This document shows positions 1-9,000 of a DNA stretch of 13,229 nt, in pieces. This stretch comes from Nitrospinota bacterium. GTDB taxonomy: Bacteria > Nitrospinota > Nitrospinia > Nitrospinales > VA-1. Made by a program: the position numbers. How positions within the stretch are numbered: position 1 is the first letter of the stretch; the number at the start of each line of letters is the position of its first letter. Location of the stretch: contig JAYNIA010000061.1 in NCBI GenBank assembly GCA_038108555.1, positions 1 to 13,229 of the forward strand. Reading direction: 5' to 3'.

Positions 1-3000
1 TGGGAGGACTCAAAAAATTACGATTCAGCCTGCGTGCAGATGTTTATTCTGGAGATGACGACCCCAATGATTCTGATTTAAATTCATTCAACCCATTCTT
101 TCCCAAAGGGAAGCATATCAGTCAGCTTGCTGCAACGGGGCTTATTAACCAGCGCGATTTGCACCCTAGAATTGATTTTACCCTGGACGAGCATTGGTCT
201 CTAACCACAAGCACACTATTTATTTGGCGGGACAGCCTGGATGATGGAATTTATTCCATTGCCAATGGAGTTTTAAGAAGTGGTTCCACAAGCCGGGCCC
301 GCTATGTTGGGACTCAGCCCGAACTGGAGGTTACATACCGTTTTAATCGGCATCTGGATTTAAAAGGAATATTTGTCTACTTCCGGGCAGGAAAATTTAT
401 TGAACAAACGACAAACGGTTCTGATATCAATTATCTTGGTACCATGCTCACCTTTAGGTTTTAAGATCTTATTAGGAATCAAAATGATCGGGTCGAAGTA
501 CACTGGCATTTGTTACGAATAGACTTCCAGAGTGCCTCTCTAAAAATGGTTTTAAGCCCGATAAAATGGGATCCAGTTTTTCTTCAGGAACCACGGTTAG
601 AATTACTTGCAAGCTACTGGTATCGTTAAACATCATATGTCCTTCGTGAAACCCTCCATGCCCTTTTCCGGATATGTTCTTGAAAATGGTATAACCGCTG
701 GCTTTTATCCGGTCTAAAACATCAGTCACAAAATGAAGGTGTTCACCTTCAATGATGATCTTGATTTCTTTCATTGGGTGAAGTTTTAATTCGCTCATAA
801 TTTTATATACTCCTCAAATTGATTTAATGGCTTGCCAATTATTTGGATATTGGAAGAGGAAAAAGTCCATATTTTCAGGGTCCAGAGAGACAATATGGAG
901 CCATTGATTTCTTGTTAATTCCTGCAAAATGGTATGCCGGGATATAATAGTGTTAATCATTTCTCTCGGAGACTCTATTATAACAAATAAGCGCATGGGT
1001 TCATGATATGGTTTCTCTCCATCCATAACGGTCTGTATGGGTAGGCCAACGCACAGATCGCTTTGGGTGCCAAACATGACTCCGACATTACCCACCACAT
1101 TATGATACGCTTTGCTTCCCGCCCCGTAGGCATTAAGGTCAACTGTAGAAAAATAGTGCTCCATGTTGATCCATTGTCCAACGATCATTGGAGCGGTCAT
1201 AATAATCTCCAAATAGTCTCCTGTAGGATCTTTAGAATAATCATAGGAATGTAAAAAAGTACGACCTTCCAGGTTTATCCCCTGGGTTAGTGCTCTTCTT
1301 CCCGCTATAAAAGCCGTATGTCGGGAAAGCCCCCATTCCGGTCGAACCTGGGACCAATCTATACTTCGTATTTTTGCCCGACTCAATGCATTAAAGGCTC
1401 CAATCATTTCCGGCTCATCGGGCATGCGAGCCAGCCGTTCCGCGCTATTTTTCTCGCCGGCTTCTTTAAGATCTCGTTGGAGTCTGATTAGATCTTTTCG
1501 ATGGGTTGCTGGAACGTTTTCCAAGTCGAAAAGTTCCACTTCATCTGTTGTGGTGTCATGTTGTCCCGGAATGAAATGCGTGTCGGATGGAATCACCAAT
1601 CCTTTTTCTGCTAAAAGTGCCCTTACATCCGGCTTGTTAGCCATGAGGGCAAGAGCCCGTGAGTTTGAATGCCCGTGGTTGCCACCGCAAGCCCCACAAT
1701 CGAGGGCAGATTCGAAGGGGTTGTTGTCTGAAGTGCTACCGTGGCCACAAAGAAGGATGAGCCGGGCAAATGTCTTGAATCCTAAAATCCTTAATGCCGC
1801 TTCAACATAATTAACCTGTTCTTCAACGGTGAACCCGGTCAGGGTTATTTTCTGCATTTGACGGTCTGTGTCTCGCTCGTTTACATTATGTTCCTGCCTT
1901 AGCAATTTAATAAATTGTTCCAGATCTGCCTGGTTCCAATGTAATAATTGATTCAGGTCATTAATTTCAGGGCTGTCGACTGGAACCTTATCCATTGCCA
2001 ACTTTCGCAGATGCTCAACCTGCTCATGGGACACAGAAGACCCTAAAGGACCATATTGATCAATCAAAAGCCTGTAGATGGTTGCCCGGTGTTTAGAGGC
2101 CACCATTTCATGAGCTTCTTCCTTTTGAATCTTGTCTACCGTCAAGGTAGTGCTCAATGGGATAGTAAACCGATCTTTTATCCATGAAATAGCTTTTTTG
2201 AAAAATTTCGGTCGTAATGTTTGTCCAAATAGTCTGAATCCAAAAAACCAACCGATCGCCTCAACCATGATATAGGGCGTAATCACGTTTTCTTTTAAAT
2301 CGTGCAGGAGTGTGTGGCCCGCCTTGGCGATTTGTTGGCCCTCTAAAAATTCTTCAGCCGCTTTGGCTTGATAAGCTCGGGGAATTTCTTTTATTACGTG
2401 ATTGGGTTTTAAGAGAACAGGGCATTGGTCTGTTCGGCAATCACTGGAAAACTCCGAGAAACTAATAGGAACTCCAAAAAAACCTGCGAATCCAAACGTT
2501 TCATTTCCGCCGATCTCTTCAAGGTTTCTTCTAAAACACTCAGACCGGACGTCAATACAGAAAATCGATTGGGAAAGAGGTCGTGATTCTAAAGGTTTTT
2601 CCTCAGAAGCATCAATCTTTTTCAGTTTCTCAATATTTGTATCAAACTTTTTAATGAATTCTTTTATGAAGCTAGACTCTAAGGCCTTCAGCCAAACGGG
2701 TCCATGCTTTGATTCAGGAAACTCTTCCAGCCAACCCAGCAAAATTTCTAATGGAGCCGGTCCGCTTTTTATAATCTCTTGTACCCTCAGGTCCAAAGAT
2801 TTTGCTATGTGCAAAACAACGAGGGTTTGAACAGCAACTTCCTGTCGACTCCGAATTTGTTGCCACTTCGAACTCAGTCCAGATGCGGATTGGTTTAGGT
2901 CGTTGATAGGTAGGGGTTCCTGATTGAAAACCGATAAATCCATATCATCTTCAATTTCCTCTGGTAAACCCCTACTTTGGAAATCTTTATATAGACCATA

Positions 3001-6000: not shown

Positions 6001-9000
6001 AAAAATAAGGACGCTTTAAAAAAGCCATGTGCGATCAAGTGGAAGATAGCCAAAGCAAACGCGCCCAGTCCGCATTCCATGATCATATATCCCATTTGGG
6101 CAACAGTTGAAAAACCCAAAGTTTTCTTAATATCATTTTGCACCAGCATCATAGAGGCACCCATCAAGACGGTCAGAACACCTATAAAGAAAACAAAGTG
6201 AAGTGTTGAGGGCGATAATGCATAAAAAGGAGCCAGTCGGTTCAGTAAAAAACCTCCGGCATTGATAATGCCAGCGTGCATAAGGGCTGAGACAGGAGTG
6301 GGGGAATCCATAGTGTCGGGCAGCCATACATGTAACGGGAATTGTGATGATTTGGCTATTGCACCCACAAAAATGGAAAGTCCTATCAAGGTAATAACAT
6401 TTACTTCAAGAGCATTCCCTGGAAGCAGAGAAACCGTGCGGGCATTATCTGCCGCCGCCTGGAAGAGTTCTGAGAACTCCAAGGTTCCAAAATATTTGTA
6501 GGCAAGAAAAATTCCAAAGAGAAAGCCCACATCCCCAATACGATGTATGAAAAAGGATTTGAAACCATTCCGACATGCATCAGGGTGGGAGTAATTAAAG
6601 TTCAGAAGAAGGTATAGCGCCAAACCCAGCAACTGCCAGAAAATAAACAGCATGAGTAAATTGGGGCTGGAAACCAGAGCGAGAATTACAAAGGTCAGAA
6701 AACTTAGAAGCCCAAAAAAACGAGTGTAACCGGGATCGCCCTCCAGATACCTTACGGAGTAGGTATTAATGACAACGCTGACACTTGTGATCAACATCAT
6801 CATCACTGCGGTGAGCCGGTCAACCAACATTCCTGCCTTAAACAGGGAGGCCCCTTCATAATCTAATGTCCATAAATCAAAATGGACCGTTCCATGGGAA
6901 CTAATATGATAAAGATTCCATACGGCCAGAAAGGCGGATGCCCAGGCACCAGTGACCCCTACTTTCGCCACATGGACATTTGCCATGTGGTTTCCGAAGA
7001 GCCAAATGTATACTCCCGCTAGCAGAGGGAAAAGGAGAATAAGAATTGGGGTTATCATAAGATGGGTAGATCCATTGGCTAAAATAGATTATCGGTTTCC
7101 CTCTTTGTAACTTTGATTACAAATGTTTCTAAAGGTTGCAAAAACTTTATCAGCTGTCATAAAAACCTCGGGTAATTAATTATAAATTTAACCCTTATTA
7201 ATTAACTGTATCAGGTCATGAACCTGTCTATGGTTTTCAATATCATGCCGCAAAGGTTTATGGCTAAAAACTTTGTATACATTCCTTCTGCCATCACGAA
7301 TGTGTTCCAAGTAACCTTCTGTTTCCAGCTCTACAATAATGCGCTGAATTGCCCGTTCCGTGATACCCACTTCTTGGGCCAGGTCACGAATGCGTTCAGA
7401 CGGATTCTTTGCCAGTAGCATCAAGACATGTGCATGATTAGTTAAAAAAGTCCATGATGATGAAGTGATTTTACTGGTGCTCATCCGTGTTTATTTTCAG
7501 AAGAAGAAATTGTTTAAAAAAGTTTCACCGTCCCTCCAAAAAACATGGGAAAAACAATACACGAAATAGATTTCATATGTCAACGAATAATTTTTCCAGG
7601 TTCTGTTTGGAGGGGGGAATGTGGTCAATTTATTTTGGCAAAAAAAAAGGGCCTCACAAGAAGTGAGGCCCTGATGAGGTTTTGAATTAAAACTTAGAAA
7701 TAAAACAAAGCATTGAAGGCAATAGTGTTTTGAGTGTACACCCCATCGCCATCTTCATTGGTAAATGTGCTGATATCCGATTCATCATGCCGATACTCTG
7801 CCCGGACAACCATGTTGTTATTGATTCTAACTTCGGGGGTGATGGACATGGCCCAGAGCCGTTGTCTGACACCGGTTCCTGTTCGACCTCCATCTTCATC
7901 ATGAAAAGTTTGTCCCCGGTAATTCAACGAGAACCAGTCATTGACATCATAGCGGACGATTCCCGAAAATCCCCACCAGCTATGGTCGCCGGTTCTGTTT
8001 CCAGTTTGATCATTTTCAAAGCCGTAAACTGCATTCAAGTTTACGAGGAGCTTTTTGCAGGGACTGAACTCAATGACCGTGTCAAAATAATTTCTCAGGT
8101 CATCGGTATTATTCGTTCCACCTGTGGGGTCTTGATCTTCTGCGCTTCCAAAATAATTGAGATAAACCACAGCCGAATCTGAAACTGCCCAGGAGATCTG
8201 TCCTCCAAATCCTTTTCCATCATTGGTATCAACCGTGTTGTCTTGTCCGTTGGAAACCATTCCAAGGAGGCCAATGGTGTCCGTCAACTGGTATTGCACT
8301 CGAACGCCGGTATGAGTGAACGGTCCCAGGTTAAAAAGGAAAGATCTGGAGAAGGTGTAATTGAATCCATCATACCCGTCCATGACTTCTGCACCGATAT
8401 GAGTAGCGAACTTTCCGACATCTATTAATAACCCATTTCCAACCGGAGCGTTGTATTGAACAAACCCGATTTGCAAATCGAAATCGTCATCGGTAACATC
8501 TGCTCCACCTACCGCCGGTCCACCGGCGGATTTGTTGATCTGGGGGCCGCTAAAACCGTAGGTCATATCGACACGAAATCCAACATCTCCAATTTTTGCT
8601 GCATCTCTTTTTAGAACGATTTCAGCATTGTCCAACTTGAACGAATCATCATCAAAATCGTACACGCGTTGAGCATTGGTTCTGTTAGATGGTTGGGCGA
8701 AATTGTAAGTTTAGGAAGAAGTTGCAAAACCATGCACTTCAATATCTTTTATCAGTTCCAACGCTGAATCCGCAGAAGCTGTGCCAACGAATCCAAACAT
8801 AAGGGCAATTGAAATTGTTCCGTTAATTAACAACTTTCTAAGCTTCAACATAAAAACCCCTTTCAATGACGAACAACCTTAAAAATCAAATAGCTTATTT
8901 CAAATATAAAGAAATTATAAATTTGAAATATCCGTATATTACTAAAGTTCCTATATAAAGCAATAGCTTAATCAATATGCAACTGATTTTTTGCCTACTT

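What a model noticed while it worked through the whole genome (the two positions that open the first line are those of the whole stretch)
472..7058. Three-subunit DAB inorganic-carbon pump with a second, NuoM/N-fold membrane subunit and a PII protein
The DAB CO2-concentrating operon reads dabB (NuoL-like) - g02646 - dabA - PII. g02646 (409 aa, no Pfam row) is a second antiporter-like membrane subunit with the NuoM/NuoN/MrpD fold, so these Nitrospinales probably build a DAB with two antiporter-like modules instead of the DabAB heterodimer.
Evidence so far: Orthologue (45-78% identical) in 22 of 41 genomes; all 19 relative loci inspected have it between dabB and dabA as far as the contig reaches; weak sequence hits go to NuoM. 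AlphaFold model (pLDDT 63) finds NuoN/NuoM/MrpD/NdhD-type subunits as all top Foldseek hits, best E 4e-5, TM 0.5-0.6.
(Added by a program. Inside this text positions count along the whole contig: contig position 1 is position 1 of the stretch shown here. "Call 12" and the like, gene names such as g00115 and contig names such as C1 are that model's own, and its searches are not shown. The text may have been shortened before it was handed on; [...] marks where a part breaks off. The agent that wrote the report below was given it as the finding of a first reader that could run no searches.)

Follow-up and report, generated by a model that had tools for sequence, protein, structure and literature searches.

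The report
Full-size DabC in DAB1 pump
This operon encodes a known three-part bacterial CO2-uptake pump plus its small regulator; its only unusual feature is that the non-pumping third part is about twice the usual size and still shows the whole respiratory-chain subunit it came from.

Summary
The operon dabB-X-dabA-PII is real. X (4111-5340, 409 aa) has a complete 14-helix NuoM fold (model pLDDT 92.9; Z 36.7) and lies beside dabB and/or dabA in 51 of 51 related loci, in Nitrospirales as well as Nitrospinota. It is not a second pump: NuoM's K234, K265 and E407 are absent in 0/45 long, 0/40 short and 0/113 fused relatives but present in 15/15 NuoM controls. Its C-terminal 250 residues are homologous to the 253-aa gene at the same position of a Nitrobacter dabB-dabC-dabA-PII operon (profile probability 99.6%). 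So X is a long form of DabC, the structural third subunit of the DAB1 heterotrimer solved by cryo-EM in 2026 (PMC13684180). Natural DabB-DabC fusions and a predicted NuoL/NuoM-type interface (0.71 vs controls 0.00) support association. The PII is of the bicarbonate-responsive CPII type, and the link to these operons was noted in 2017. What I did not find in print is the series of DabC forms (14 helices, 12 helices, fused, 8 helices) that records decay from NuoM. New variant of a known system; modest interest.

The parts
5343..7058 (-). dabB (DAB1 type), NuoL-like proton-conducting subunit, 571 aa; keeps R173, D176, K236, H261, H340, H344, K348; NuoL E144 is Q142; NuoL K399/D400 lost
   Evidence: 40% identical over 502 aa to Nitrobacter DabB
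814..4068 (-). dabA (DabA1 type), 1084 aa, beta-CA-like; Zn site C504, D506, R508, H776, C791; L914; membrane elbow about 590-625 and arm about 640-735
   Evidence: positions compared with the T. albus numbering
472..798 (-). PII-like protein of the CPII type, 108 aa
   Evidence: PF00543; only PDB sequence hits are 5d4l/5d4n series, E 1e-31; 48% identical to the PII of the Nitrobacter DAB1 operon
7188..7484 (-). winged-helix regulator (98 aa), probably first gene of the transcript; 129 nt before dabB
   Evidence: same gene precedes dabB in L010, L034, L019, L021 and the other dabA operon in L017, L052, L053
7554..7583 (-). conserved sigma-70-like promoter (TTGACA-18-TATTGT) with an imperfect GAA..TTC inverted repeat in the spacer; candidate operator of the regulator (inferred)
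   Evidence: once in the 2.9 Mb genome; 10 matches in 1.64 Mb of loci (8 distinct places), all 97-338 nt upstream of the regulator or of dabB; 0 in five shuffles of L001-L061. The pattern was drawn from these same upstream regions.
7648..7672 (-). terminator-like hairpin with a T run after the upstream porin gene, separating it from the DAB transcript
   Evidence: 10-pair stem, 7 G-C

Best explanation
The operon encodes a DAB1-type vectorial carbonic anhydrase. Protons enter through DabB down the proton-motive force; this drives conformational changes in the buried zinc site of DabA, which hydrates CO2 to bicarbonate in one direction and so builds the cytoplasmic bicarbonate pool (mechanism taken from the solved DAB1/DAB2 complexes, not tested here). 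X is DabC: it sits on DabB where NuoM sits on NuoL (its helices 12-13 against DabB helices 5-6, with DabB's C-terminal lateral helix lying across its cytoplasmic face), conducts no protons and braces or allosterically constrains DabB. It differs from described DabC in keeping the six N-terminal helices that point away from DabB and that shorter and fused forms have lost. The CPII-type protein probably senses bicarbonate/adenylates and regulates the pump, and the upstream winged-helix protein probably controls the transcript (both inferred). Shown here: gene order, homology, fold model, residue loss, fusions. Inferred: complex formation, lack of transport, regulation.
For: Same gene order and a homologous middle gene in Nitrobacter hamburgensis plasmid 1 (dabB 565 aa, 253-aa gene, dabA 1037 aa, PII); profile-profile probability 99.6%, E 1.9e-23 over X residues 159-409 (Nitrospinota-only profile 97.0%); the short-form profile ranks X first in this genome (E 1.5e-15; NuoM 2.9e-8). 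Long, short and fused forms fall on one side of a 100/100 branch against NuoM/N/MrpD; their DabB partners form one clade (SH-aLRT 95, quick tree) and so do their DabA partners (93). K234/K265/E407 present in 0 of 45 long, 0 of 40 short, 0 of 113 fused, 15 of 15 NuoM controls. X evolves faster than its partners (mean identity 56% vs 72% DabB, 69% DabA in Nitrospinota-labelled loci; 36% vs 64% and 59% in the others). Fusions: 35 of 80 metagenome loci have dabB and dabC in one frame, and 30 of 30 of those with room are followed by dabA (counted by hand, loci partly redundant). Complex prediction DabB+X: score 0.71, best of 3 controls 0.00; the mark was reached by 116 of 157 solved complexes and 2 of 215 mismatched pairs; runs agree in at least 82% of contacts, partner pLDDT at least 78; the pair resembles solved NuoL-NuoM, so the pass may reflect likeness. 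DabA keeps the Zn ligands and motifs. PMC13684180 reports exactly this role for DabC.
Against: I could not fetch T. albus DabC or H. neapolitanus hneap_0908; the 'short DabC' reference is the Nitrobacter gene and its relatives (including Halothiobacillaceae and Guyparkeria proteins), assigned by position, size and fold. Direct BLAST of X against the Nitrobacter protein is not significant (E 0.5). Within Nitrospinota-type sequences (A1, 49 rows) some polar positions in helices are well kept: R107 94%, H137 94%, H174 100%, E203 92%, H251 78% charged; H174 and H251 match NuoM H241 and H322. The DabC branch is long, and shared loss of charged residues could inflate its support. The DabA loop reads NNPFESALD where DabA1 was reported strictly NNPYESALD. 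No transport, binding or expression data.
Confidence: 0.88

Rival explanations
1. X is a second active ion-conducting module, giving this DAB two coupled channels and a higher H+ (or Na+) per CO2 stoichiometry.
For: Complete 14-helix NuoM fold; broken-helix prolines P169/P172 and P327 kept; H174 kept in 39 of 45 long forms; R107, H137, E203, H251 conserved within the Nitrospinota-type set.
Against: None of 45 long forms has K234, K265 or E407, and none has E at the E144 column (that column depends on the alignment: L110, a gap); H348 is lost; the clade-conserved polar residues are not kept across the family (13-36% charged in A2); DabB has lost E144 (Q in 19 of 19 long-form and 9 of 9 fused partners), the residue that faces NuoM in complex I (role recalled); forms lacking 2 or 6 N-terminal helices occupy the same slot.
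Confidence: 0.06
2. The six extra N-terminal helices are kept because they dock another partner (NuoN, MrpD or another membrane protein), tying this DAB1 into a larger membrane arm.
For: These helices form the face of NuoM that meets NuoN/MrpD (recalled); a sister DabA clade heads an operon with Mrp subunits, a NuoL-like and an intact NuoM subunit, and the two operons are adjacent in some genomes (L001/L060, L004, L017, L035).
Against: No such partner in the operon in any of 51 loci; this genome has no match to the small Mrp subunits (91.85% complete); helices 1-2 are missing in 358-359-aa forms (L031-L033, L035-L039, L044, L049) and helices 1-5 in most fusions; the N-terminal half is the least conserved part.
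Confidence: 0.08
3. X is a NuoM-derived paralogue that independently took this slot and is not orthologous to described DabC (convergence).
For: Pairwise identity to short forms is at noise level; both derive from NuoM, so some profile similarity is expected; the solved DabC sequence was not compared.
Against: The short-form profile scores X above the genome's NuoM subunits (55 vs 31 bits) and fused/long forms up to 112 bits; one clade in two trees; partners DabB, DabA and PII are each of the DAB1 type; identical gene order.
Confidence: 0.06

Closest known systems
DAB1 (DabA1-DabB1-DabC) of Thermocrinis albus and Halothiobacillus neapolitanus (PMC13684180; three-subunit DAC)
   Same: Three subunits, order dabB-dabC-dabA (H. 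neapolitanus hneap_0909/0908/0907); long DabA with elbow and arm; third subunit NuoM-like, without Pfam call, with hydrophobic residues at the channel positions; predicted to sit where NuoM meets NuoL.
   Different: [quoted passage not shown] DabB-DabC fusions are not mentioned in the passages read.
DAB2 (H. neapolitanus DabA2-DabB2; PDB 9rd0/9rd8/9rd9) and MpsAB
   Same: beta-CA-like DabA (E 5e-106 to 9rd0_A), NuoL-like DabB with E144 and K399/D400 lost.
   Different: Two subunits; DabA about 200 aa shorter, without the arm; no DabC in six such loci inspected.
NuoM/ND4/NdhD of complex I
   Same: Fold over the whole length (Z 36.7, 383 residues, rmsd 3.0 to 7ar9_M; Z 35.4 to E. coli 3rko); best profile hits (E 3e-20; NuoN 2e-8).
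   Different: About 50-100 aa shorter, no beta-hairpin in the model, no K234/K265/H348/E407, not in a nuo operon; the genome has two separate intact NuoM genes.
CPII (carboxysome-associated PII of Thiomonas intermedia) and SbtB
   Same: Only PDB sequence matches are 5d4l/5d4n-series entries (that these are T. intermedia CPII is recalled); CPII binds bicarbonate near the C-loop (10.1101/762807); PII at the 3' end of nuoL-homologue/ybcC operons was noted in PMC5700660.
   Different: Here no RuBisCO large subunit was found in the genome (91.85% complete), so the regulator serves a pump without a carboxysome; its target is untested.

Membership tests
DAB/DAC complex | PF10070 subunit with Zn ligands Cys, Asp, His, Cys | tested here: met
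   PF10070 E 1e-256; C504, D506, H776, C791
DAB/DAC complex | Co-located PF00361 NuoL-like subunit with the TM4-11 channel residues and a divergent TM12-14 | tested here: met
   D176, K236, H261, H340, H344, K348 kept; K399/D400 lost
DAB/DAC complex | PMF-dependent inorganic-carbon accumulation (rescue of CA-free E. coli, CCCP-sensitive) | not testable with these tools
   needs bench work
DAB1 | Third gene dabC between dabB and dabA | tested here: met
   homologous to the 253-aa gene in the same slot in Nitrobacter
DAB1 | Long DabA1 with elbow, arm and NNPYESALDCGACGG / DWxxxRPEWGL motifs | tested here: met
   1084 aa; NNPFESALDCGACGG at 782 (one Y>F change), DWSQVRPEWGL at 904; groups with Nitrobacter DabA1 apart from DAB2
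DabC | Aligns to the NuoM helices next to NuoL; channel residues replaced by hydrophobic ones | tested here: met
DabC | [quoted passage not shown] | tested here: not met
   409 aa, 14 helices; hence filed as a long variant, the C-terminal 250 aa being the part shared with short DabC
DabC | Direct homology to T. albus DabC or hneap_0908 | not testable with these tools
   neither sequence nor the DAB1 structure came up in the libraries searched; proxy: Nitrobacter, Halothiobacillaceae and Guyparkeria proteins
DabC | Essential for activity and co-purifies with DabA/DabB | not testable with these tools
   only indirect: fusions and complex model
Active antiporter-like subunit (NuoM/NuoN/MrpD) | 14-TM antiporter-like fold | tested here: met
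Active antiporter-like subunit (NuoM/NuoN/MrpD) | TM5 Glu, TM7 Lys, TM8 Lys/His, TM12 Glu/Lys | tested here: not met
   0 of 45 long forms for K234, K265, E407 and for E at the E144 column; 15 of 15 controls keep them
CPII-type PII protein | Sequence closer to CPII than to GlnB/GlnK | tested here: met
   at E <= 0.01 only the 5d4l/5d4n series matched among 177,635 PDB sequences; label of those entries recalled
CPII-type PII protein | Bicarbonate-modulated nucleotide binding | not testable with these tools
   needs bench work

The most novel reading that the evidence does not exclude
The 14-helix DabC is a living intermediate that shows how DAB1 arose: DabA was first attached to an Mrp/complex-I-type arm with a working NuoL-NuoM pair (still seen in the sister DabA clade, whose NuoL-like partner keeps E144 and whose NuoM keeps all channel residues); the NuoM module was then switched off together with DabB's E144 and eroded from the end facing away from DabB (14 helices, 12 helices, fused 9 helices, free 8 helices, none in DAB2). 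Supported by the sister position of the two DabA clades (SH-aLRT 99) and the paired residue losses; not supported by the DabC tree, which places DabC among NuoM but not specifically with the Mrp-linked NuoM, and the direction of change is not rooted.
Probability: 0.45. Interest if true: 0.55.

Novelty: new variant of a known kind. Interest (0 to 1): 0.33.

Why it matters
It corrects an annotation trap (these genes are labelled hypothetical or NuoM) and shows that many marine nitrite oxidisers carry a DAB1 pump although this genome shows no RuBisCO. The natural series of long, trimmed, fused and short DabC gives ready-made constructs to ask what DabC does, an open point in the 2026 structure paper, and natural DabB-DabC fusions could simplify heterologous expression of DAB1. 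It is not a new class of pump.

Tried and rejected
PDB sequence search with the narrow alignment A1: no hit; the wider A2 found NuoM. Direct BLAST of X against the Nitrobacter short form: not significant. RNA runs: no RNA holder listed, so no reads were laid. ATP-citrate lyase family search rang nowhere, controls included, and says nothing. Specific descent of DabC from the NuoM of the DabA-Mrp operon: not resolved; two other NuoM proteins of unknown context scored higher with the DabC profile (106 and 104 bits against 89-96), though those were picked by a DabC profile in the first place. The E. coli nuoM in record L069 is split over two frames and was dropped from the tree. The careful DabB tree did not finish; the quick tree is quoted. 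The supplement of PMC13684180 could not be read; its list of 50 DabA1 operons may include long-DabC ones. Schmid et al. 2021 is not held. Literature searches that found no description of a full-length DabC or of DabB-DabC fusions: (open-licence PMC and bioRxiv only). Look-ups of earlier scan notes by sequence and by a first word set gave nothing.
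Full report
Observation. The four minus-strand ORFs are present as described: dabB 5343-7058 (PF00361, PF00662), X 4111-5340 (409 aa; no meaningful Pfam hit; NuoM TIGR01972 at E 4.7e-9 over residues 156-402), dabA 814-4068 (PF10070, E 1e-256) and a PII gene 472-798. They are 2, 42 and 15 nt apart. A winged-helix gene (7188-7484) lies 129 nt upstream, preceded by a sigma-70-like site at 7554-7583 and, further up, a terminator-like hairpin after a porin gene. The closest relatives are labelled Nitrospinota.

Conservation. A scan of GTDB genomes gave 51 loci. X is beside dabB and/or dabA in 51 of 51; dabB is upstream in 45 of 45 loci with room, dabA downstream in 47 of 47, PII in 35 of 36 (a few loci share a genome). 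Identity to X is 45-78% in L001-L030 and L034 and 33-39% in the other 20, nearly all labelled Nitrospirales, Nitrospira or Nitrospiria. In 101 genomes of the order, 35 have an orthologue and 55 have some DabA match; 33 of the 35 are next to dabA and two end at a contig edge after dabB-X. A profile search of 1.8 billion representatives gave 163 proteins, among them a wider family of 410-460 aa and proteins of 780-880 aa; labels include Nitrospiraceae, Manganitrophaceae and Melainabacteria.

Fold. With a 109-row alignment the model has pLDDT 92.9 and pTM 0.93, and 14 membrane helices without a beta-hairpin (helix numbers below are my mapping on NuoM). Foldseek's best hits are NuoM/ND4/NdhD (E 2e-11; TM 0.76-0.83); VIA-align gives Z 36.7 over 383 residues at rmsd 3.0, with NuoM, NuoL and MrpD chains nearly tied on Z. 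Sequence separates them: the wider profile finds NuoM at E 3e-20, MrpD at 1e-8 and NuoN at 2e-8, and in a mixture-model tree NuoN and MrpD are split off from NuoM plus the X family by a 99/99 branch.

It is not a pump. In an alignment of 45 long, 40 short and 113 fused family members with 15 NuoM controls, K234, K265 and E407 (E. coli numbers read) occur in none of the family and in all controls; X has F167, A198 and L335 there, and V276 for H348. The E144 column holds no Glu either, though its alignment is unstable. H174 (NuoM H241) is kept in 39 of 45 long forms. Against a flat 'dead' reading, the Nitrospinota-type set keeps R107, H137, E203 and H251 at 78-94%, but the wider family does not (13-36%). 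X also changes faster than DabB and DabA. DabB keeps D176, K236, H261, H340, H344 and K348, lacks NuoL K399/D400, and has Gln for E144 in 19 of 19 long-form and 9 of 9 fused partners, much as reported for DabB2 (bioRxiv 10.64898/2026.03.13.711513, section 10). DabA keeps C504, D506, R508, H776, C791 and L914.

It is DabC. PMC13684180 (main text parts 1-5 of 7 read; supplement unreadable) solved DAB1 from Thermocrinis albus as a DabA-DabB-DabC heterotrimer. [quoted passage not shown] I could not fetch that protein. As proxy, Nitrobacter hamburgensis plasmid 1 carries dabB, a 253-aa gene, dabA and PII in the same order; its DabB is 40% and its PII 48% identical to the window's. The 253-aa protein has 60 relatives, mostly 240-270 aa, including Halothiobacillaceae and Guyparkeria proteins (40 of the 60 were aligned). 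That profile matches the long-form profile at 99.6% probability over X residues 159-409, helices 7-14, the Nitrospinota-only profile at 97.0%, and ranks X above the genome's own NuoM, although direct BLAST is not significant. Long, short and fused forms group together against NuoM/N/MrpD at 100/100, on a long branch.

Association. The 780-880-aa proteins are DabB fused to the C-terminal part of DabC. A search with that part returned 397 proteins, 120 listed, 113 rows of at least 780 aa used later; labels include Nitrospiria, Deltaproteobacteria, Pseudomonadota and anammox bacteria. Of 80 metagenome loci, 35 have the fusion, 34 a separate long dabC and 11 are cut or broken; 30 of 30 fusions with room are followed by dabA (hand count, partly redundant). 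Most fusions start at helix 6, which by the known topology of NuoM (recalled) begins on the cytoplasmic side, where DabB's C-terminal helix ends. The predicted DabB+X complex scored 0.71 against 0.00 for the best of three controls (mark reached by 116 of 157 solved complexes and 2 of 215 mismatched pairs; runs agree in at least 82% of contacts; partner pLDDT at least 78). DabB residues 135-189 meet X residues 317-378, and DabB 560-571 is also in the interface: the NuoL-NuoM arrangement, so the pass may come from likeness to solved complex I.

PII and regulation. The PII's only PDB sequence matches are the 5d4l/5d4n series (E 1e-31), which I recall as Thiomonas intermedia CPII; passages of 10.1101/762807 say CPII binds bicarbonate and shifts nucleotide affinity. 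PMC5700660 (passages) noted PII at the 3' end of such operons in 2017. The promoter with its spacer inverted repeat recurs before the winged-helix gene or dabB at 8 distinct places in the loci and once in this genome; autoregulation is a guess. No RuBisCO was found in the genome (91.85% complete); a beta-CA, a SulP and a partial SbtA match were. Passages of PMC13147460 list Nitrospinota among rTCA users and report DAC in all Nitrospirota examined, without mention of the third subunit.

Evolution. Stand-alone forms range from 409-440 aa (14 helices) through 358-359 aa without helices 1-2 to about 250 aa. A second DabA clade in these genomes heads an operon of mrpE, F, G, B', B, C, D, a NuoL-like and an intact NuoM gene; 37 of 37 strong mrpE matches in the order lie next to a dabA (hand count). 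That DabA clade is sister to DabA1 (SH-aLRT 99, quick tree); its NuoL-like partner lacks K399/D400 but keeps E144 (9 of 9). This suggests that DAB1 is a reduced form of such an arm, but the DabC tree does not tie DabC to that NuoM and the order of events is not rooted. The Mrp cluster with extra nuoL/nuoM is mentioned in passages of PMC12342949 and 10.1101/2020.03.05.977850 without dabA.

Other papers seen as passages only and not decisive: 10.1101/476713, PMC10880623, PMC6606698, PMC6458275, 10.64898/2026.05.01.722082, PMC9040806. Schmid et al. 2021 was not held. Eight searches found no description of a full-length DabC or of DabB-DabC fusions; subscription papers and the unread supplement could hold one. 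Earlier notes of this scan reached the same reading on other genomes; I saw them after my own tests and do not count them as support.

Verdict. A real, conserved DAB1 operon with a full-size, channel-dead DabC and a CPII-type regulator: a new variant of a known system. Interest 0.33.

Noticed in passing
L052:7226-18444 (G002:C1), also L053-L061, L001, L004, L017, L035; not in the window's genome: A second dabA (about 1005 aa, no arm, Zn site intact) heads an operon mrpE-F-G-B'-B-C-D, NuoL-like, intact NuoM; 37 of 37 strong mrpE matches in 101 genomes of the order are next to a dabA. Its DabA clade is sister to DabA1. Already noted several times by this scan.
   Followed up: partly
L052:8858-11050: The NuoL-like subunit of the DabA-Mrp operon lacks K399/D400 like DabB, keeps E144, has Ala/Ser for R175, and carries a repeated C-terminal segment that lengthens the lateral helix (730 aa in L052).
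   Followed up: partly
L072-L098 and others; proteins P0150, P0285-P0402: Widespread natural DabB-DabC fusions of about 860-880 aa, followed by dabA and PII; one fusion of 995 aa keeps nearly the whole long DabC (L103, P0320).
   Followed up: yes
L099, L101, L102, L104, L119: Two tandem dabB genes in front of one long dabC and dabA.
   Followed up: no
L110, L112, L105: A dabA of the Mrp-linked clade directly upstream of a dabB-dabC fusion that is followed by a second dabA; in L112 a NuoM-like gene follows.
   Followed up: no
L019:650-820, L021:751-921: A 57-codon remnant of the Mrp-linked dabA between the winged-helix gene and dabB, suggesting that the regulator-dabB junction seen in the window arose by deletion of the DabA-Mrp operon.
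   Followed up: partly
window 7188-7583: Winged-helix gene with a conserved promoter/operator motif; sits before either type of DAB operon in relatives, so a candidate regulator of inorganic-carbon uptake.
   Followed up: partly
window 7694-10350: Ammonium transporter AmtB and a BBP2 porin upstream on the same strand, closed by a terminator-like hairpin; the same porin and amt neighbour the operon in L010 in another arrangement. The PII gene belongs with dab, not with amt.
   Followed up: partly
window 3-464 (+): C-terminal part of an alginate-export-family porin (PF13372) cut by the contig start; its stop lies 7 nt from the PII stop, convergent, with no terminator found between them.
   Followed up: no
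L016, L018: DabA1 of about 1000 aa lacking the arm (window residues 647-730) although a long dabC is present, so arm and DabC are not strictly linked.
   Followed up: no
window 10921-12851 (+): Genes that look like fliL, fliM and fliN (by eye, from recall; not scanned).
   Followed up: no
L062 (NC_007959.1): The Nitrobacter hamburgensis plasmid carries the dabB-dabC-dabA block twice in tandem.
   Followed up: no
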